In this document: piece after piece, positions 4,024 through 45,613 of the stretch
Position numbering within the stretch: the stretch's first letter is position 1
Layout: each line of letters opens with the position of its first letter
Source of the DNA: a virus
Lineage: Duplodnaviria > Caudoviricetes
IMG/VR virus record: IMGVR_UViG_3300021399_000130
Location: 26,592-90,591 of that record
Direction: 5' to 3' (one strand)
DNA: 64,000 bases
Made by a program: the position numbers and the translations under genes
The notes under the pieces: model-generated
Databases searched by the model: none
Told to the model about the DNA's origin: nothing
What the model saw: the letters and a program-made list of their open reading frames with translations, nothing else

Positions 4024-4058
4024 TTTATCACAATATTTTTCTATAAATAGTTAAAGTT

Positions 4059-4074
4059 TGGCATACTTTTTGTA
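4059..4074 (+). promoter_or_regulatory. Sigma54-like (-24/-12) promoter motif
   Basis: TGGCATACTTTTTGTA; related copies at 34726, 38251, 38467, 39855. Confidence 0.45.
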
Positions 4075-20157: not shown

Positions 20158-21105
20158 GTGTCGCAAAAATTGACGATTTTTACGACGATGGCAAAAAGAG
20201 GAAGAAAGCCAAAGGAAAGAAAAGGCTATTTTTATGAAAAAGAGGAGCAGGCGATAGTTGATTATACCTCATCGACTGACCCGGAAGAAAAAAACAAGAT
20301 ATTCAACACAGTTTTAATGCCGGCCCTGACAAAGATGATAGAGTCAATCATAAGGAGATATAAATTATTTGTCCCGGAAGAAGAATTCCAACAAACTTTT
20401 AATGACACTATCTCTTATTTGCTGACAAAGATAAACAACTTCAAGCCAGAAATGTGGGTTTATGAAGAAATGACTGAAAACCCGCCAGAGCCACCGGTAG
20501 ATTTAACGAGGACCGGTTTTATCGAATTAAAAAAAACGATAAATGAAAATTCCCCGAAATACGTGCGTGTGTTTAAAGATTCCGTGGAAGATGCTTATTT
20601 AAATAACTATACGCCGCTATATACTTTCTACAAGCTCGTGTTCAGGCGATATAAGGCATATTCATACTGCGGTACTGTTTGTAAAAACTATTTGATTTAC
20701 AAGAACATACAATATACGAAGAACAAGCAGAGGAATCTTCCATATGATGAAATGCTTGAAGATTTTTCAAGGGACCCGAAATATATTTCACAAGAAGAGA
20801 CCGAACACTCAATGGTTGAACGTCTAATCAAAGGAATGTCGAGTGAAATCAAAACAATGATAACCGAAAAAGAAAAGAATTCACTTACTGAAAATGAAGT
20901 GAAAGTTGGCGTCGCTCTTACTGAACTTCTTGACCGTTGGGAAGACTTACTTAATGTCGATGGAAGTAATAAATTACAAAAAAGTTCAGTTCTTTATTTC
21001 TTAAGGGAAGAAACAATGATGTCGACAAAGGAAGTCCGAGATAATATGCGAGCCTTCAAAAAAGCATATTACATTTTGAAAAAAGGAATGTTAGAAGATG
21101 AATAG
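20158..21105 (+). CDS. Putative late-transcription sigma factor (T4 gp55-like)
   Basis: YF....EQAI..Y, KMIESIIRRYK, ISYLLTKINNFKP, KAYSYCGTVCKNYLI resembling sigma region 2 of gp55-like factors; start may be 20188. Confidence 0.6.
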   Translation: MSQKLTIFTTMAKRGRKPKERKGYFYEKEEQAIVDYTSSTDPEEKNKIFNTVLMPALTKMIESIIRRYKLFVPEEEFQQTFNDTISYLLTKINNFKPEMWVYEEMTENPPEPPVDLTRTGFIELKKTINENSPKYVRVFKDSVEDAYLNNYTPLYTFYKLVFRRYKAYSYCGTVCKNYLIYKNIQYTKNKQRNLPYDEMLEDFSRDPKYISQEETEHSMVERLIKGMSSEIKTMITEKEKNSLTENEVKVGVALTELLDRWEDLLNVDGSNKLQKSSVLYFLREETMMSTKEVRDNMRAFKKAYYILKKGMLEDE

Positions 21106-27092: not shown

Positions 27093-27186
27093 CTTATAAA
27101 CGTTCTACTACCATAAATAGTTTGACGCCAGTAAATATATTTTTTTCTTTTTCCTTTCGTTTTACATAGATTTAGCTATTTATATA

Positions 27187-27275
27187 GTGAGAGCGGCGAT
27201 TGCCCAAATCACGTAATGCGTGGTCATAAGGTTAGCCGCAGGGGGACCTAGGCGCATATGGCCCCCTTTCTCTGC
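27187..27275 (+). ncRNA. Candidate structured ncRNA (three-way junction)
   Basis: GC-rich island in AT-rich intergenic DNA directly after CTATTTATA (27176). Stems GAGA/TCTC, GCGGC/GCCGC, ATCACG/CGTGGT, AGGGGG/CCCCCT; no ORF. Confidence 0.5.
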
Positions 27276-27323
27276 GTCTATTGACTTCCGGACAAAATAC
27301 CTTATATTTAGTTGTAGATTTTA

Positions 27324-27776
27324 TTGTTTATGACTAAAAATATCTGTAGTGAAGTATCATTGGAAAATCCATATTTCAAATTAAAAATCGGTACGATAAA
27401 TAAAAAAAATCCCACGACGTTCTATGTCGAGGGTGGGACATTCATCACTCCAGTAGAAGCAGAGGATGACGATATTTCATATAAAGAGAAAATGGCCAAC
27501 GTTTATAAGGCAATGAGCCAGGGTATAATAAGGATTACAAACGAGGCTAAGAATATACAAAAAACATTCATAGCCAATATTGACGTGGCGGACGAGCGTA
27601 TGAAAACCGGTAAGAAAACATATTTCACTTTCCAATATTATCTCCACCAAAACGGGGAGCCGGCACCATTTTCAAAAATAACGGAAGACGGCGAGAAATA
27701 CACAAAGATTGTTCTTGACAAGATTGAATATAGTCTCAAAGAAAACGGATTTGCAATAAGTAAAACAAAAAAATAG
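27324..27776 (+). CDS. Hypothetical protein
   Basis: 150-aa ORF downstream of a TTGACT promoter-like sequence at 27281. Confidence 0.7.
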   Translation: MFMTKNICSEVSLENPYFKLKIGTINKKNPTTFYVEGGTFITPVEAEDDDISYKEKMANVYKAMSQGIIRITNEAKNIQKTFIANIDVADERMKTGKKTYFTFQYYLHQNGEPAPFSKITEDGEKYTKIVLDKIEYSLKENGFAISKTKK

Positions 27777-34723: not shown

Positions 34724-34725
34724 TT

Positions 34726-34741
34726 TGGCACGGTTTTTGCA
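34726..34741 (+). promoter_or_regulatory. Sigma54-like promoter (perfect consensus)
   Basis: TGGCACGGTTTTTGCA matches TGGCACG-N4-TTGC(A/T), upstream of 34787. Confidence 0.55.
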
Positions 34742-38247: not shown

Positions 38248-38320
38248 GTTTGGCACAGTTTTTGTAATAGTATAGTTGTATTTGTTTTTTTGAAATAGTT
38301 TTTGTATACTATTTATAGTA

Positions 38321-38438
38321 GATACAATGATGATGGGTCCGCCAGACAGTCATCGTTAACATAGAAGTGTAACGGGAGAAATTCCGCTTATGGCACCTAT
38401 CTTAATTCTGGCGGGTTTTGATGGGTGCCATTTTTTTT
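38321..38438 (+). ncRNA. Candidate kissing-loop small RNA A
   Basis: Hairpin AATGATGA/TCATCGTT; GAAA-tetraloop hairpin CGGGA/TTCCG; terminator ATGGCACCTATC/GATGGGTGCCAT plus T run; loop CCGCCAGA (38339-46) complementary to loop TCTGGCGG (38407-14). Confidence 0.7.
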
Positions 38439-38466
38439 AAAAGATTTTTTACAAAACCCGCAAGTT

Positions 38467-38482
38467 TGACACGGTTTTTGTA
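38467..38482 (+). promoter_or_regulatory. Promoter motif upstream of the methyltransferase
   Basis: TGACACGGTTTTTGTA, variant of the TGGCACGGTTTTTGCA family. Confidence 0.45.
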
Positions 38483-38515
38483 TAAAGAGTATAGAAACAT
38501 TGAAAAATTAGAATT

Positions 38516-39763
38516 ATGGAAGCACCTACAAAGAAACCCAACATTAAGCTCCCAGAAGGAATGGAGCTCGTATGGAATTCTGTTACCGAAAGATGGGCAA
38601 TGCGTCCGGTTCCGGGTTACTCTACCATTTATCTTGACAAGAATTCCTTTATCCCCAAATCAACCGAAGAAAGGAAAGAAGCAAATAAGGATAAAGGCGC
38701 TGGTAAAACAAAAAATGGAAAACTCCACAAGGCAAAAAGAGACAAAAATGATGAATTTTACACTCGTCTTGAGGATATCACTGATGAGTTGAAACACTAT
38801 GGTAGAGAATTTTTTGAAGGAAAAGTGGTTTATTGCCCATGCGACAAGGCATTCAATCTTGGCCGCAGTAATTTCTTCACTTTCTTTACCTCTCATTTCC
38901 TTGATTGGGGTCTCAAAAAGCTTGTTGCCACCCAATACGTTGAAGGCGGCCGTGGATGGATGTGGGTTATTGAGAAAGGTGACATTAACGGCAACGGCTA
39001 TATTGACGAGAGCGAGATTGACACTTATCAACTTACTGGTAATGGCGATTTCCTGAGTGAAGAATGTCGTAAAATTATGGATGAGAGTGATGTGGTTGTG
39101 ACAAATCCCCCGTTCTCTCTTTTCCGGCCTTTTGTCAATCAGCTTGTTGAGCTGAACAAGAAGTTCCTTATTATTGGTAACCAGAACGCCATTACCTACA
39201 AAGAAATTTTCCCCCTTATAAAGGAAAACAAAGTTTGGCTTGGTTACCACAATAATGCGACCTACATCTTTGAAAGCCCAAACGGAAACATTCTTGAATC
39301 CAACCGGGAATACGTCAAAGCACATGGTTTGGACCCCGATAAGTATATCAAAGTACCAAGTGTTTGCTGGTTTACTAACCTTGAACACAACAAACGAAAA
39401 GAAGACCTATATCTTGGCAATACTTACTTCGGGCATGAAAGTGAATACCCGAAGTATGATAACTATAACGCTATTGAGGTCAGTAAAGTAGCAAACATTC
39501 CGGTTGATTACAATGGCGTAATGGGTGTTCCGATTACTTTTCTTGGTCAATATAACCCGGAACAATTCGAAATTGTCGGATGCGCGGATGCGGATATCCT
39601 CCCTGATGGGTGGTCCGGCATGACTAGTGAATTTGTTGAGCTTTATTACAAACAAGGAAACACTGGTCAATACAAAGAAGGAAACAGACTAACCCATTAT
39701 GTTAGCCCGGAAGGAAAAGCAATAGTTCCTTTTAAGCGAATTCTCATCCGTCGCAAGAAGTAG
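38516..39763 (+). CDS. Adenine-specific DNA methyltransferase, EcoRI-methylase family
   Basis: NDEFYT, KVVYCPCD, GDF.SEEC, DVVVTNPPFSLFR, FLIIGNQNAITYKE, PKYDNY.AIEV, GVMGVPITFL. Confidence 0.9.
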   Translation: MEAPTKKPNIKLPEGMELVWNSVTERWAMRPVPGYSTIYLDKNSFIPKSTEERKEANKDKGAGKTKNGKLHKAKRDKNDEFYTRLEDITDELKHYGREFFEGKVVYCPCDKAFNLGRSNFFTFFTSHFLDWGLKKLVATQYVEGGRGWMWVIEKGDINGNGYIDESEIDTYQLTGNGDFLSEECRKIMDESDVVVTNPPFSLFRPFVNQLVELNKKFLIIGNQNAITYKEIFPLIKENKVWLGYHNNATYIFESPNGNILESNREYVKAHGLDPDKYIKVPSVCWFTNLEHNKRKEDLYLGNTYFGHESEYPKYDNYNAIEVSKVANIPVDYNGVMGVPITFLGQYNPEQFEIVGCADADILPDGWSGMTSEFVELYYKQGNTGQYKEGNRLTHYVSPEGKAIVPFKRILIRRKK

Positions 39764-39773
39764 TCTCATCATT

Positions 39774-39815
39774 GGGTTGCCACCAACGGCAATTGTGGTC
39801 GGCAACCTATTTCTT
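39774..39815 (+). terminator. Intrinsic terminator
   Basis: GGGTTGCC / GGCAACCT stem followed by ATTTCTTT. Confidence 0.65.
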
Positions 39816-39854
39816 TAAGATTTTTTCTTGATTTTTTAGATAGTTTTGCTGGTT

Positions 39855-39870
39855 TGGCATAGTTTTTGCA
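39855..39870 (+). promoter_or_regulatory. Sigma54-like promoter motif
   Basis: TGGCATAGTTTTTGCA upstream of the DUF262-HNH gene. Confidence 0.5.
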
Positions 39871-39906
39871 GTATAACTTACGGTTAATTTTGTAAAATTT
39901 AAGAAT

Positions 39907-41298
39907 ATGGCTAGAAGTAAATTTTATGGCTTTCGCATGGTGCAGCAGGAAAAAAGCGCACTTGTAATCAAAGAATTGAAGAATGTAACGCTCGGCGAAC
40001 TAGCTGAAGGGTATGTTGACAACTCCGAAAATGTTGGTGGAGGTGTGTTTGCTTGGGGTGGAAAACTCATTGTTCGTCCCGAGTTCCAGAGGTCATTCGT
40101 TGTTGACGGAAACTATGAGTGGCAGACAAACCTGATTGACTCCGTTCTGAACCATAAACCAATAGGACTTATGTATTTCGGAATTGAGAGCGAGAAGAAG
40201 GATGTTTATTACAATATTGATGGGCAGCAGAGACTTATGACACTTCTGTCTTTCATTAAAGGTGAGCTCGCTCTTCCTATGATTAAGGATGATGGAACAA
40301 CCGAATCCGTTCTTTTTAATCAGATGCCAGAAGAATGGCAGAGAACCATCAAACAATATACGCCCCTCATTAATGTGTGCATGGGCTCAGAGGAAGAACT
40401 CCTGAAGTGGTTTAGGACTATCAATCAGCCGGTTTGTATCCTTACCGACCAAGAGCTTCGCAATGCGGCCTATAACGGTGTGTGGTGCGAGATTGCTAAA
40501 AGAGCGTTCTCAAAATCCAAAACGACTGAAAAGCCGACCGCAATGAATGGTTTTGTAATGGCCGAAAATAGTCGTTATTACTACGGAAACTATGCCCCCA
40601 AACTTAGCCCGGAAAGGCAGGATGTTCTTGAAATGGCTATTGATTGGATTACGAAATCAGTTTATGGGAGTAGCATCAAAACGATGAAATCGGCTGGCAT
40701 TGACCCAATTGAATGTTACATGGCAGAACATCAGCATGATACAAACGCGGATGAACTTATCAACCACTATAAAAGCGTGGTCGACTGGATTTGGGACGTC
40801 TTCTTCCATGATGGTGCACCGAAAAACTGGCAGTCTGTCCGTTCTCAGGATTGGGGTCGGTTGTACGCCGAATACAAGGATATGCCTCTTACTGAGGAAC
40901 AAAAGATGTATATCAGTAAGCGTACGAAGGAAATCGTTGGTTATGGCGCATCCGTATACCAGAAGACCGACGGCATCTACGAGTGGGTTCTTCGTGGTGA
41001 AAAGAAGGAAGAAGAAAACACCTACCTCCATCTCCGTGGGTTCTCTCCCGAAGATAAGAGTGCCATGTACAATGCCCAGGATGGTTATGACCCGATTGAC
41101 GGACAACATTACGATGTGGCCGATATGCATGCCCATCACATCAAGTCGTGGAGAAGCGGTGGAGATAGCAAGTACGACAATCTCGTCTGGCTCTCCAAAG
41201 AAACGCACAGGAAACTTCATGCCGGAGACCTCGGAATCAGTGGAGAGGAACTCAAGAACTTGCGTGACGAGCTCATCAAACGGAACAAATCCAAATAG
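39907..41298 (+). CDS. DUF262 (GmrSD-like) domain plus C-terminal HNH endonuclease
   Basis: RPEFQRSFV, LIDSVL...PIG.MYF, IDGQQRLMTL, F..INQ....LT.QELRNA; C-terminal AHHIKSW..GG.S..DNL..L....H. Confidence 0.85.
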   Translation: MARSKFYGFRMVQQEKSALVIKELKNVTLGELAEGYVDNSENVGGGVFAWGGKLIVRPEFQRSFVVDGNYEWQTNLIDSVLNHKPIGLMYFGIESEKKDVYYNIDGQQRLMTLLSFIKGELALPMIKDDGTTESVLFNQMPEEWQRTIKQYTPLINVCMGSEEELLKWFRTINQPVCILTDQELRNAAYNGVWCEIAKRAFSKSKTTEKPTAMNGFVMAENSRYYYGNYAPKLSPERQDVLEMAIDWITKSVYGSSIKTMKSAGIDPIECYMAEHQHDTNADELINHYKSVVDWIWDVFFHDGAPKNWQSVRSQDWGRLYAEYKDMPLTEEQKMYISKRTKEIVGYGASVYQKTDGIYEWVLRGEKKEEENTYLHLRGFSPEDKSAMYNAQDGYDPIDGQHYDVADMHAHHIKSWRSGGDSKYDNLVWLSKETHRKLHAGDLGISGEELKNLRDELIKRNKSK

Positions 41299-41317: not shown

Positions 41318-41352
41318 ATAATCCCAGGTTCCGTAAAGGTTCCTGGGATATT
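41318..41352. repeat. Repeated terminator-like hairpin (copy 1; copy 2 at 45578-45612)
   Basis: ATAATCCCAGGTTCCGTAAAGGTTCCTGGGAT vs ATAATCCCAAGTTCCGTAAAGGTTCTTGTGGT. Confidence 0.75.
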
Positions 41353-43546: not shown

Positions 43547-43591
43547 AATGATAGGTTTGTTTTTTAAAAGTATTTTTGTACTATATATAAG

Positions 43592-43709
43592 GTAGAAATA
43601 TAAATCACCACATATCGTGAAGGGCTATGTGGGAATAAGAGATATAATACGGCAGGAGCAATCTTGTGGCGCCCTTCACTTTAGCTGCGAGATTGTTTCT
43701 GCCTTTTTT
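43592..43709 (+). ncRNA. Candidate kissing-loop small RNA B
   Basis: Hairpin CCACATA/TATGTGG with loop GTGAAGGGC (43617-25); 20-bp terminator stem (43651-70 / 43684-703, five G-U pairs) with loop GCCCTTCAC (43671-79), plus T6. Confidence 0.75.
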
Positions 43710-43733: not shown

Positions 43734-44540
43734 ATGTTTAAATCACCATTACGTTATCCTGGCGGTAAAAACAGGTTAGTTAAAATAATAAGCGAGTTAG
43801 CCCCAAAAGACTTCCTTGAATATCGTGAACCATTCCTTGGTGGAGGGAGTGTCTTATTAAAGATGATGGAAGATTATCCCGGGAGAAGATATTGGGCAAA
43901 TGACCTGTATTATGATTTGTTCTGCTTCTGGAATATGGCTCAGAAAAACCCAGAAGAGCTCGTTTCTAAGATAAAGGTAATCAAAGACAGGTGGTCCGGG
44001 GATGGGAAAGGTCTCCATAGATATCTGGTTGATAATATCGCCACGATGTCCCCTATTGATAAAGCGGCTGCGTTCTTTGTGTTGAACAGGATAACATTTT
44101 CCGGGACAAGCTTATCCGGCGGTTTCTCCAAGTCAGCTTTTGAGACCAGGTTTACCGATAGCAGTATAGAAAGACTAATGTCAATGGGACAGGTATTGCA
44201 GGGAAAAGATTTGACTATTACGAATGAGGACTTCTCCTCTGTTTTGACTGGGGGTGATAGCTCAGTTTTCACATTCTTAGACCCGCCGTATTATAGCGCA
44301 ACAGATTCTGCATTATATGGAAAAAATGGTGAATTACACAAAGGATTTGACCACGAGAGACTGGCTGATTCATTAAAAGATTGCAATCACCGTTGGCTTA
44401 TGACTTATGATGACTGCGAATATATTAGAGAACTATATAAAGATTTCAACATCAAGGAGTTTGAACTTATGTATGGGATGCGTAACGTAAGTAAAAACGC
44501 AGACATGAAAGGAAAAGAGGTTTTTATTTTTAACTATTAG
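43734..44540 (+). CDS. D12-class (Dam-family) N6-adenine DNA methyltransferase
   Basis: KSPLRYPGGKNRL, EPFLGGGSV, NDL, FLDPPYY, WLMTYDD; specificity not determinable. Confidence 0.9.
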   Translation: MFKSPLRYPGGKNRLVKIISELAPKDFLEYREPFLGGGSVLLKMMEDYPGRRYWANDLYYDLFCFWNMAQKNPEELVSKIKVIKDRWSGDGKGLHRYLVDNIATMSPIDKAAAFFVLNRITFSGTSLSGGFSKSAFETRFTDSSIERLMSMGQVLQGKDLTITNEDFSSVLTGGDSSVFTFLDPPYYSATDSALYGKNGELHKGFDHERLADSLKDCNHRWLMTYDDCEYIRELYKDFNIKEFELMYGMRNVSKNADMKGKEVFIFNY

Positions 44541-44547
44541 AAAAAAT

Positions 44548-45438
44548 ATGGCAAAAAAGGCATCAAAAAATGAAAAAAATCTTATGAAAATCTTTCCAAA
44601 AGGTCTAGTCTTTTATTATAAAGACCGGTTTTGGAAAGTTATTGACGTAGGTAAACCAAAAACTAATGGCGGTGGTGGAGAACCAAAAACTGATGTATAT
44701 ATTAGGTTTAATGTATACGAAAATGAACATATGCTCAAAAAAAACTTTATTACTCAAATTATTGAAACAAAAATTTCTCTAAAAGCAACCAATGCTGATT
44801 TTGTTGAAAACAAAATGATATATGAACGGGCTAGACAAATTTTTAAAGAAAATACTGATATTGTATTAAAAGAAATACTTGAAAAAATATACGAAGGTGA
44901 TTCCGAGGGTTTTTTAAAAATTATGAAAGCTGGTCGGACAGATAAAAAGCACGGAAACGGCTTATTCTTAGGAATGAGAATAGACTTTATGTCTCAGCCT
45001 AATGGAAAAAAAAGCTGTTCATATCCGTTAACCAGGGAGCAGAAAAGAGAAATTTTTACTGGTTCTACACTTGAAGAGTCTAAGAGAAATGCAATTGTTA
45101 ATGGTGTTATTATTGAGAATTCTGGTGTTGCTAATAAATATTTAAAAATGGATGTACAGGGGAATGAAACGCCACAAGAGATACTTGATAACTTAATATC
45201 ACTAGAAGCGGATTCTCCTTTTTATGATGAAGTTGAACTTTATCCGACACTTAAAGGATGCTATTATTATCCCGATGATGGATATTGTGAAGGAAAAAGA
45301 GCACTTATGATAAGCGTAAATTACTCTTATGATGGTGCAAATAAAACTTTTATTCCAGAAGGGTTAAATTTTGATAGTCCATTAAAATATACAACAAAAG
45401 ATGCTATCCAGAACCTTAAGACGTTAGAAGTTATGTAA
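44548..45438 (+). CDS. Putative cognate type II restriction endonuclease (PD-(D/E)XK)
   Basis: EPKTDVYI...ETKISLKATNADFVENK; 7 nt downstream of the MTase; visibly more AT-rich than the flanks. Confidence 0.6.
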   Translation: MAKKASKNEKNLMKIFPKGLVFYYKDRFWKVIDVGKPKTNGGGGEPKTDVYIRFNVYENEHMLKKNFITQIIETKISLKATNADFVENKMIYERARQIFKENTDIVLKEILEKIYEGDSEGFLKIMKAGRTDKKHGNGLFLGMRIDFMSQPNGKKSCSYPLTREQKREIFTGSTLEESKRNAIVNGVIIENSGVANKYLKMDVQGNETPQEILDNLISLEADSPFYDEVELYPTLKGCYYYPDDGYCEGKRALMISVNYSYDGANKTFIPEGLNFDSPLKYTTKDAIQNLKTLEVM

Positions 45439-45510: not shown

Positions 45511-45613
45511 AACAACAGGTATCCACACCGCCTGCACTGGATATCCTATAAGCAATATGAAGACGGGCACCTATCGTATAATCCCAAGTTCCGTAAAGGT
45601 TCTTGTGGTTTTT
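45511..45613 (+). ncRNA. Candidate small RNA C
   Basis: TTGACT promoter-like sequence at 45476; hairpin AGG-TATCC / GGATA-T-CCT (45518-45547); terminator hairpin 45578-45612. Confidence 0.4.

What the first reader, a model, noticed from the sequence alone, without database searches (positions are those of the whole stretch)
38321..38438. Element A: three-hairpin RNA with GNRA tetraloop and loop-loop pairing
Stem 1 is AATGATGA(38326-33)/TCATCGTT(38350-57), stem 2 is CGGGA-GAAA-TTCCG (38373-86), and stem 3 is the 12-bp ATGGCACCTATC/GATGGGTGCCAT followed by a T run. Loop CCGCCAGA (38339-46) pairs with TCTGGCGG (38407-14), extendable by four G-U pairs. A further promoter motif (38467) lies between this RNA and the MTase, so A may be an independent trans-acting sRNA rather than a leader.
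Basis: seen in the sequence. Interest (0 to 1): 0.7.

Follow-up and report, generated by a model that had tools for sequence, protein, structure and literature searches.

The report
Kissing-loop terminator RNA before phage restriction-modification genes
A roughly 115-base RNA module in a large rumen phage starts with a hairpin whose loop pairs with the loop of its own transcription-stop hairpin; it sits at the head of a DNA-cutting/DNA-marking gene pair and most likely gates transcription into those genes, a design absent from RNA catalogues.

Summary
All stems, the T8 run and the 8-nt loop-loop complement are at the stated coordinates. The fold is strand-specific (z -3.9). The pairing is non-random: 51 of 200,000 loop shuffles match it, and none of 972 control terminators does.

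The GNRA loop and the small middle hairpin are not conserved, so the core is two hairpins, not three.

Element A heads a 3-kb inserted cassette with a type II methyltransferase and restriction enzyme. Element B (43608-43709) has the same design with other letters (9-nt pairing) before a second such cassette. A third leader type, before homologous cassettes in other phages, keeps its loop-loop helix through three compensatory double changes.

Element A is 98% identical in front of a methyltransferase only 61% identical, so it is a portable module. There is no Rfam match, and four full-text paper searches gave no description.

This scan has noted kissing-loop terminator leaders before on other Bacteroidota phage DNA. 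I could not check those notes.

Best reading (0.42): a promoter-proximal gate or attenuator whose terminator is locked by the kissing contact and which releases a short RNA. A stand-alone structured sRNA remains a serious rival (0.28). No transcript data could be obtained.

The parts
38250..38266 (+). P1: sigma-54-like -24/-12 motif TTGGCACAGTTTTTGTA (GG..GT)
   Evidence: One of five copies of TTGGCAYRGTTTTTG(C/T)A, all on the + strand. The other four lie 35-55 nt before an ATG. The block is shared with Element B of L368.
38281..38317 (+). P2: composite promoter block. TTTG, about 20-nt spacer ending TTTTTG, then the phage 'late' motif CTATTTAT (38309-16)
   Evidence: CTATTTAT lies 8-25 nt before many start codons on both strands. 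The same block precedes Element B. Relatives use canonical Bacteroidota TTTG/TAnnTTTG promoters with the same spacer. Promoter activity is inferred.
38326..38357 (+). H1: 5'-proximal hairpin. Stem 38326-34/38349-57, 14-16 nt loop
   Evidence: One U.G to U-A change in L234 and L589. It starts 9 nt after the late motif.
38335..38346 (+). H1-loop pairing segment: core CCGCCAGA 38339-46, wobble extension 38335-38
   Evidence: Exact complement of 38407-14. p about 2.6e-4. Invariant in 3 variants. G38335 to A in L589 turns G.U into A-U.
38359..38370 (+). Small 4-bp hairpin (not conserved)
   Evidence: Predicted. One pair is broken in L234.
38373..38386 (+). Hairpin CGGGA-GAAA-UUCCG; stem kept, GNRA loop not kept
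   Evidence: L234 has GGATTAATTCC.
38390..38431 (+). Terminator hairpin: 12-bp stem, 18-nt loop
   Evidence: Alone it folds at -23.4 kcal/mol. U.G to U-A in L589.
38407..38418 (+). Terminator-loop pairing segment: core UCUGGCGG 38407-14, extension 38415-18
   Evidence: Invariant in 3 variants.
38432..38439 (+). U8 tract
   Evidence: T7 in L234 and T6 in L589.
38466..38482 (+). P3: degenerate copy of the sigma-54-like motif (GA..GT), 34 nt before the methyltransferase ATG
   Evidence: In L589 the equivalent motif has GG.
38516..39763 (+). Type II DNA methyltransferase (EcoRI-methylase family)
   Evidence: Pfam PF13651, 1.6e-111. PADLOC MTase_II, 6.7e-105.
39854..39870 (+). P4: perfect sigma-54-type motif TTGGCATAGTTTTTGCA before the nuclease gene
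39907..41298 (+). Restriction endonuclease (GmrSD_N/DUF262 + HNH)
   Evidence: Pfam. PADLOC REase_II, 4.2e-51, nearly full length.
43557..43588 (+). Element B promoter block: TTTG..TTTTTG plus CTATATAT (CTATTTAT in relatives)
43608..43632 (+). Element B H1: CCACAUA / UAUGUGG, 11-nt loop holding GUGAAGGGC (43617-25)
   Evidence: Two compensatory C-G to U-A changes in relatives.
43651..43709 (+). Element B terminator: 20-bp stem with 5 G.U, 13-nt loop holding GCCCUUCAC (43671-79), then U6
   Evidence: G-C to A-U compensatory change at the stem base. Loop-loop p about 8.5e-5.
43734..44540 (+). Type II D12-class adenine methyltransferase; start 25 nt after the U tract
   Evidence: Pfam PF02086. 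PADLOC MTase_II, 5.4e-98.
44548..45438 (+). Type II restriction endonuclease
   Evidence: PADLOC REase_II PDLC03438, 1.9e-30, full length.

Best explanation
Element A is the RNA module at the head of a mobile type II restriction-modification cassette in a T4-like jumbo phage of rumen Bacteroidota.

Proposed sequence of events:
1. Transcription starts at the cassette's own promoter block, a few bases before hairpin H1.
2. H1 folds first.
3. When the 18-nt loop of the long terminator hairpin emerges, it docks on the H1 loop (8 Watson-Crick pairs).
4. This holds the terminator in its folded form, and most polymerases stop at the U8 tract, releasing an RNA of about 115 nt.

The module therefore acts as a promoter-proximal gate and insulator. 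It limits how much upstream or late transcription runs into the methyltransferase and nuclease genes. Read-through, basal or induced by a factor that opens or bypasses the lock, supplies the rest.

Shown here: the anatomy, the non-random and (in a sister leader) covarying loop-loop helix, the link to the cassettes, and portability.

Inferred only: the transcription start, actual termination, the direction of the kissing effect on termination, and any releasing factor.
For: 1. Anatomy and strand-specific fold.
2. A strong terminator: 12-bp stem at -23.4 kcal/mol plus U8.
3. The loop-loop helix is favourable: -14.4 kcal/mol against an opening cost of 5.9 kcal/mol. It is also improbable by chance (51 of 200,000; 0 of 972 controls reach 8 nt).
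4. Element B has the same design with unrelated loops (9 bp; 17 of 200,000). Its methyltransferase ATG is 25 nt after the U tract with no promoter between, so those genes can only be reached by read-through. Its stems covary in relatives.
5. The sister leaders L587 and L670, before homologous cassettes, keep the kissing helix through three adjacent double changes. These are the only double changes in that RNA.
6. Both cassettes are complete type II R-M pairs. Cassette A is an insertion relative to L002.
7. Element A is 98% identical in L589 although the methyltransferase there is only 61% identical.
8. The motif between Element A and its methyltransferase departs from the five-copy motif at both key dinucleotides. 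Read-through may therefore matter for A too.
Against:
- In A, and in the sister leaders, a promoter-like box lies between the terminator and the methyltransferase. This fits an independent RNA gene as well.
- A terminator that only had to stop transcription would not need a large loop, so the kissing contact may serve the released RNA rather than termination.
- Within Element A itself the loops are invariant in three variants, so A has no covariation of its own.
- No antiterminator gene was identified; only 25% of the genome is held.
- A complete 363-kb relative has no such element, so it is not a general device of this phage group.
Confidence: 0.42

Rival explanations
1. A stand-alone, compact small RNA. 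The unit from promoter to terminator is a gene in its own right. The kissing contact gives a closed, nuclease-resistant tertiary fold, and the RNA acts in trans. It might bind a protein of the cassette or the host (for example tempering the nuclease), or use a loop to pair with a target RNA.
For: - It has its own promoter block and a strong terminator.
- A further promoter-like motif lies before the methyltransferase in A and in the sister leaders.
- The loops and terminator are invariant while flanks vary.
- The module is exchanged intact between diverged cassettes.
- Terminator loops of sRNAs can drive regulation (PMC11979758, abstract).
- A 13-nt exact complement of the terminator loop lies at 20477-89 in a + strand ORF (roughly 0.02 expected).
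Against: - Element B leaves no room for a separate promoter.
- No complementarity to the start regions of the methyltransferase or nuclease genes beyond a weak 7-nt AU match, seen by eye in the sequence (UAAUUCU 38403-09 with 38509-15). The duplex computation was uninformative.
- In L670 the covaried loop sequences occur nowhere else in the locus. The loops therefore track each other, not a local third partner.
- The 13-nt site lies in a Pro-Pro-Glu coding stretch and was not tested in relatives.
Confidence: 0.28
2. Ligand-sensing riboswitch, for example sensing SAM/SAH for the methyltransferase. The kissing loop would link an aptamer to the terminator, as in cobalamin riboswitches.
For: - It lies upstream of SAM-dependent enzymes.
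- Kissing contacts between an aptamer loop and an expression-platform hairpin are known in cobalamin riboswitches (own knowledge).
Against: - No Rfam match even at E up to 10.
- A, B and the sister leader share no body sequence, so there is no common pocket.
- The middle part of A is the least conserved.
Confidence: 0.05
3. An ordinary terminator or insulator at the cassette edge. The loop complementarity would be a by-product with no function.
For: - The hairpin plus U8 would also end the upstream 213-aa gene's transcript.
- No covariation within A.
Against: - The same rare feature is found three times with different letters, and with compensatory changes.
- 0 of 972 control terminators show it.
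- A dedicated promoter block lies directly upstream.
Confidence: 0.1
4. Leader-peptide attenuator. The 10-codon ORF 38328-38360 (MMMGPPDSHR) inside H1 would couple translation to termination.
For: The ORF exists with three Met codons and a Pro-Pro motif. It is upstream of a SAM-dependent enzyme.
Against: - Both substitutions seen in relatives are non-synonymous (R to H, M to I) yet keep RNA pairing.
- Element B and the sister leaders have no matching ORF.
Confidence: 0.03
5. A DNA-level element: a protein-binding inverted repeat or a recombination site.
For: The two 8-nt segments form an inverted repeat about 60 bp apart at a cassette boundary.
Against: - G.U pairs (5 of 20 in B's stem) and the weaker minus-strand fold point to RNA.
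- Substitutions are G.U to A-U or compensatory.
- A U tract follows on one strand only.
Confidence: 0.03

Closest known systems
Lambdoid late unit PR' - 6S RNA - tR' released by Q (own knowledge)
   Same: A promoter is followed at once by a short structured RNA and a strong terminator ahead of the genes. Most transcripts end as a small RNA unless the polymerase is modified.
   Different: No Q-like gene or qut site was identified here. Lambda's 6S RNA has no loop-loop lock. The genes served here are R-M cassettes, not the late operon.
Cobalamin riboswitch L5-L13 kissing loop (own knowledge)
   Same: A loop of an upstream hairpin pairs with the loop of the expression-platform hairpin to set gene expression.
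   Different: In the cobalamin case the contact is ligand-dependent within a conserved aptamer. Here three leader types share no core sequence and match no Rfam model.
E. coli greA leader / GraL RNAs (PMC2836576, abstract seen)
   Same: Two overlapping promoters are followed by a leader terminator. About two-thirds of transcripts stop there and give small RNAs; the rest become mRNA.
   Different: No kissing contact is reported in the abstract. It is a chromosomal housekeeping gene, not a mobile phage cassette.
Antisense-RNA-driven attenuation (pT181, pIP501) and ColE1 RNA I/RNA II kissing complexes (own knowledge)
   Same: Loop-loop kissing between hairpins decides whether a terminator or another structure forms. 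The helices are 6-9 bp long.
   Different: Those contacts are between two separate RNAs. Here both loops lie on one transcript.
sRNA terminator loops as regulatory determinants (SdsR, RseX, ArrS; PMC11979758)
   Same: The loop of an intrinsic terminator carries function beyond termination.
   Different: In that work the loops act in trans on the fepA leader, 'likely without base-pairing' according to a section heading. Here the loop has an exact intramolecular partner.
Known R-M control devices: C proteins with C-boxes, and EcoRI antisense RNAs (own knowledge)
   Same: They serve the same need: setting the level or timing of methyltransferase against nuclease in a mobile R-M unit.
   Different: There is no C-protein ORF in the 268-nt spacer. 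The RNA is sense-oriented and upstream, not antisense within the R gene.

Membership tests
Intrinsic (Rho-independent) terminator | Stable stem directly followed by a U tract on the transcribed strand | tested here: met
   12-bp stem at -23.4 kcal/mol plus U8. No U tract after the minus-strand hairpin.
Intrinsic (Rho-independent) terminator | RNA 3' ends map to the U tract | not testable with these tools
Any Rfam 15 family | Covariance-model score at or above the gathering threshold | tested here: not met
   0 matches in the window. Only sub-threshold chance hits at E up to 10.
GNRA tetraloop / receptor module | GNRA loop conserved among relatives | tested here: not met
   GAAA is replaced by a UUAAU-type loop in L234. 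It is kept in L589.
Riboswitch (SAM classes, cobalamin-type) | Conserved ligand-binding core shared by all copies | tested here: not met
   A, B and the sister leaders share architecture but no body sequence. No Rfam hit.
Kissing-loop terminator leader (uncatalogued class noted earlier in this scan) | Apical loop of a terminator hairpin complementary to the loop of a 5'-proximal hairpin on the same transcript | tested here: met
   8 bp in A and 9 bp in B. 7-8 bp in L587 and L670.
Kissing-loop terminator leader (uncatalogued class noted earlier in this scan) | Complementarity kept by compensatory changes among relatives | tested here: inconclusive
   Met in the sister leader, with 3 double changes. 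In A and B the loops are invariant across 3 and 4 variants.
Kissing-loop terminator leader (uncatalogued class noted earlier in this scan) | Own promoter, with the first hairpin at the 5' end of the transcript | tested here: inconclusive
   The late motif ends 9 nt before H1. The same motif lies 8-25 nt before many ATGs. No mapped start site.
Kissing-loop terminator leader (uncatalogued class noted earlier in this scan) | Terminator directly before the first gene, with no promoter between | tested here: not met
   Met for B, with a 25-nt gap. Not met for A: a 76-nt gap holds a degenerate promoter motif.
Lambda-type Q antitermination unit | Q-like antiterminator gene and a qut-type site at the promoter | not tested
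   Only a quarter of the genome is held. No dedicated search was made.
Trans-acting base-pairing sRNA | Conserved seed with complementary, conserved target site(s) | tested here: inconclusive
   The loops are conserved. The only lead is a 13-nt site at 20477-89. Nothing at the R-M start regions.
Leader-peptide attenuator | Conserved short ORF under purifying selection | tested here: not met
   Both substitutions in the 10-codon ORF are non-synonymous. No equivalent ORF in B or the sister leaders.
C-protein-controlled R-M system | Small HTH controller gene with a C-box upstream of the R-M genes | tested here: not met
   No ORF other than spurious overlaps in 38248-38515 or 39764-39906.

The most novel reading that the evidence does not exclude
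These elements, together with the similar leaders this scan has noted in other Bacteroidota phages, may form an undescribed class of self-locking terminators. An intramolecular kissing loop would make termination depend on the integrity of a 5' hairpin. A phage factor, or a competing RNA that occupies one loop, could then switch a whole cassette on. Here that would set when a phage-borne restriction enzyme and its protective methylase are made. Alternatively, the released RNA could itself be a protein-binding partner of the R-M cassette.
Probability: 0.3. Interest if true: 0.75.

Novelty: new variant of a known kind. Interest (0 to 1): 0.6.

Why it matters
Phage-borne restriction-modification cassettes must be expressed without killing the phage's own replication. 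How large phages of gut and rumen Bacteroidota control such cargo is unknown.

A portable RNA module that travels with these cassettes, and whose only conserved feature is a loop-loop lock on its own terminator, gives a concrete regulatory device. It can be tested directly with compensatory mutants.

If the lock controls termination, it adds a new logic to bacterial and phage attenuation: a tertiary contact rather than competing helices. It would also offer a compact, sequence-programmable terminator part for Bacteroides engineering.

Tried and rejected
Searches that found no relatives or matches:
- Rfam and ARAGORN: nothing.
- INPHARED phage records, blastn of the spacer: nothing.
- Second copy in the genome, by DNA and by a single-sequence covariance model R1: none.
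- IMG/VR pattern scans for the loop pair, the terminator, the promoter block and the P1-P2 block: chance hits only. Near relatives seem to be withheld there.
- The closest IMG/VR, GTDB-genome and JGI-metagenome homologues of either methyltransferase (54-58% identity or less) have no such leader.
- The 75% and 66% relatives of the D12 methylase (L374, L375) have no such leader.
- The 66% relative of the EcoRI-like methylase (L588) has no clear one.
- A complete 363-kb relative, G001, has no kissing terminator.

Ideas tested and dropped:
- GNRA-receptor idea: rejected.
- The 10-nt complement GCGGGTTTTG (38411-20) with CAAAACCCGC (38452-61): weakened in L234 and absent in L589, so not part of the element.
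- An 'antiterminator' from the repeated GAUGGGU (38332-38 and 38420-26), seen by eye in the sequence: a 7-mer repeat at chance level, and it cannot nest with the kissing helix.
- Leader peptide: rejected.
- Pairing of A or B with the start regions of the R-M genes: nothing convincing.

Tools that could not be used:
- The genome search could not reach the ENA/Logan records behind L235, L239 and L244.

Full report
**Setting.** The window is part of a 90.6-kb IMG/VR virus record judged 25% complete. It encodes a T4-type portal, a Gp23-type capsid protein and a BACON-domain protein. Identical or near-identical contigs come from metagenome assemblies whose scaffold names point to sheep and cattle rumen. 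Related complete genomes of 295-412 kb use canonical Bacteroidota TTTG/TAnnTTTG promoters. It is therefore a T4-like jumbo phage, most likely of rumen Bacteroidota.

**The observation.**
- H1 is 38326-33 / 38350-57.
- A GAAA-capped hairpin is at 38373-86.
- A 12-bp hairpin at 38390-401 / 38420-31 is followed by T8.
- CCGCCAGA (38339-46) faces TCTGGCGG (38407-14) and is extendable by four wobble pairs.

RNAfold gives the same hairpins at -41.6 kcal/mol, z -3.87. The opposite strand folds worse (z -2.5) and lacks a U run. The region is non-coding: it is a 268-nt spacer between a 213-aa ORF and a methyltransferase gene.

**Is the loop-loop match chance?**
- In 200,000 shuffles that keep each loop's composition, an 8-nt run was reached 51 times.
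- I scanned terminator-like hairpins with loops of 6-20 nt for complementarity to any upstream hairpin loop. The controls were 2.75 Mb of unrelated phage loci, 1.2 Mb of related T4-like phages, a complete 363-kb relative, and 0.42 Mb of bacterial loci.
- These gave 378, 348, 116 and 130 candidates. None reached 8 nt, and the counts at 7 nt matched the permuted null.
- In this phage's own 90 kb, two candidates stand out with 8 and 9 nt.
- The core helix is worth -14.4 kcal/mol against 5.9 kcal/mol to open the loops.

**The second case.**
- A hairpin (43608-32) carries GUGAAGGGC in its loop.
- A 20-bp stem with five G.U pairs (43651-703) carries GCCCUUCAC in its loop, then U6.
- The fold has z -5.58, and the loop match was reached in 17 of 200,000 shuffles.
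- The methyltransferase ATG follows 25 nt after the U tract.
- Four sequence variants from other assemblies show two compensatory C-G to U-A changes in H1. They also show a G-C to A-U change at the terminator base, with an A.C intermediate. The loops are invariant.

**What the elements belong to.**
- PADLOC models call both downstream gene pairs complete type II restriction-modification systems. The first is the EcoRI-family methylase 38516-39763 plus the DUF262/HNH nuclease 39907-41298. The second is the D12 methylase 43734-44540 plus the nuclease 44548-45438.
- A relative with an 84% identical upstream gene (L002) lacks everything from 38248 to about 41305. It resumes at the same bidirectional terminator. 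Cassette A, RNA included, is therefore an insertion.
- Cassette B sits in at least five different gene neighbourhoods but always keeps its RNA.
- The promoter block before A and B is shared. It holds a sigma-54-like motif. It also holds a composite of a host-type TTTG/spacer and the phage's CTATTTAT motif.
- CTATTTAT lies 8-25 nt before many start codons. A transcript from it would begin within a few bases of H1.

**Relatives of Element A.**
- L234 (93% identical over the whole spacer) keeps H1, both loops and the terminator. It turns a U.G into U-A, replaces GAAA by a UUAAU-type loop, and breaks the small 38359-70 hairpin.
- L589 carries the element at 98% identity although its methyltransferase is only 61% identical in protein. 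Its two changes inside the RNA both turn G.U into A-U. One of them lies in the wobble extension of the kissing helix.
- The element is thus a discrete module that moves between diverged cassettes.
- A's own helices show only one-sided changes, so A alone offers no covariation.

**A sister leader with covariation.**
- Two further homologues of the cassette carry a different RNA in the same place. They are L587 and L670, with methylases 63% and 58% identical, each followed by a GmrSD_N-type gene.
- That RNA has a late-type motif, then a 6-bp hairpin with an 8-nt loop, then a long interrupted terminator with U6. The folds have z -4.4 and -3.45.
- Its loops pair as GUGAGAC:GUCUCAC in L587 and as AGUGACGA:UCGUCACU in L670.
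- Three adjacent positions have changed on both sides, and these are the only double changes in the RNA.
- With two sequences this is thin statistically. It is nevertheless exactly the signature expected of a functional loop-loop helix.

**Mechanism.** Three leader types with unrelated letters share four things:
- a start-proximal hairpin;
- an unusually long terminator stem with a large loop;
- complementarity between the two loops;
- a position at the head of an R-M cassette.

I think the most likely reading is a promoter-proximal gate. The kissing contact locks the terminator, most transcripts end as a short RNA, and read-through feeds the R-M genes. For B this is nearly forced by the 25-nt gap. 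For A the intervening motif at 38466 deviates at both critical dinucleotides of the five-copy motif. By contrast, the nuclease gene has a perfect copy at 39854.

The termination itself, the direction of the kissing effect and any releasing factor are all inferred.

The main rival is that the released RNA is the functional product. This is suggested by promoter-like boxes between terminator and methylase in A and in the sister leaders. It is also suggested by the fact that a mere terminator needs no large loop.

A riboswitch, a leader peptide, a DNA site and pure chance are each disfavoured by specific results. These are listed under the rival explanations.

**Novelty.**
- There is no Rfam family.
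- Four full-text searches found no description of such leaders.
- Notes of this scan report kissing-loop terminator leaders in Flavobacterium phages, another rumen phage and Bacteroidales. I could not check those, and they are not evidence. They do mean the design has been seen by this scan before on other DNA.
- New here are the link to phage-borne type II R-M cassettes, the module's portability, and the covarying sister leader.

Noticed in passing
window 4058-4074, 34725-34741, 38250-38266, 38466-38482, 39854-39870 (+): Five copies of TTGGCAYRGTTTTTG(C/T)A, a match to the sigma-54 -24/-12 consensus (GG-N10-GC). The copies at 34725 and 39854 are perfect. All are on the + strand, and four lie 35-55 nt before an ATG. 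A T4-like phage using RpoN-type promoters would be unusual.
   Followed up: partly
window, about 25 sites, e.g. 21124, 27176, 28447, 45627, 51451 (+); 51431, 49396, 30837, 539 (-): The motif CTATTTAT(A) lies 8-25 nt upstream of many start codons on both strands. It is probably this phage's late promoter, comparable in position to T4's TATAAATA.
   Followed up: partly
window 41323-41347 and 45583-45608; L002 about 2287-2311: The same terminator hairpin (CCCAGGTTCCGTAAAGGTTCCTGGG; the second copy is diverged) marks the right edge of cassette A and a site about 140 nt beyond the end of cassette B (nuclease stop at 45438). It is also present at the empty site in L002. It may be a recombination anchor for cassette exchange.
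   Followed up: partly
window 20477-20489 (+), inside ORF 20158-21105: AAAACCCGCCAGA is a 13-nt exact complement of the Element A terminator loop (roughly 0.02 expected by chance). It encodes a Pro-Pro-Glu stretch. Its conservation in relatives was not examined.
   Followed up: no
window 38411-38420 with 38452-38461: A 10-nt perfect complement links the terminator loop and the DNA just after the U tract. It is weakened in L234 and absent in L589, so it is probably not functional.
   Followed up: yes
L478, minus strand, about 150 nt downstream of the promoter-like hit at G005:191050-191078: A Bacteroidota-type promoter in a related 345-kb phage is followed by a very stable GC-rich structured stretch with no obvious ORF start. 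The 215 nt folded from the promoter's -7 region gave -59.7 kcal/mol. It may be another non-coding RNA.
   Followed up: no
window 27176-27323 (+): A CTATTTAT motif is followed by a 140-nt GC-rich leader before the ORF at 27324. I did not examine it.
   Followed up: no
L587 1421-1440 and L670 1431-1450: Just after the sister leaders' U tract lies a small hairpin (GCGCC ... GGCG) with a conserved stem and a variable loop. A TAccTTTG box follows before the methyltransferase.
   Followed up: no
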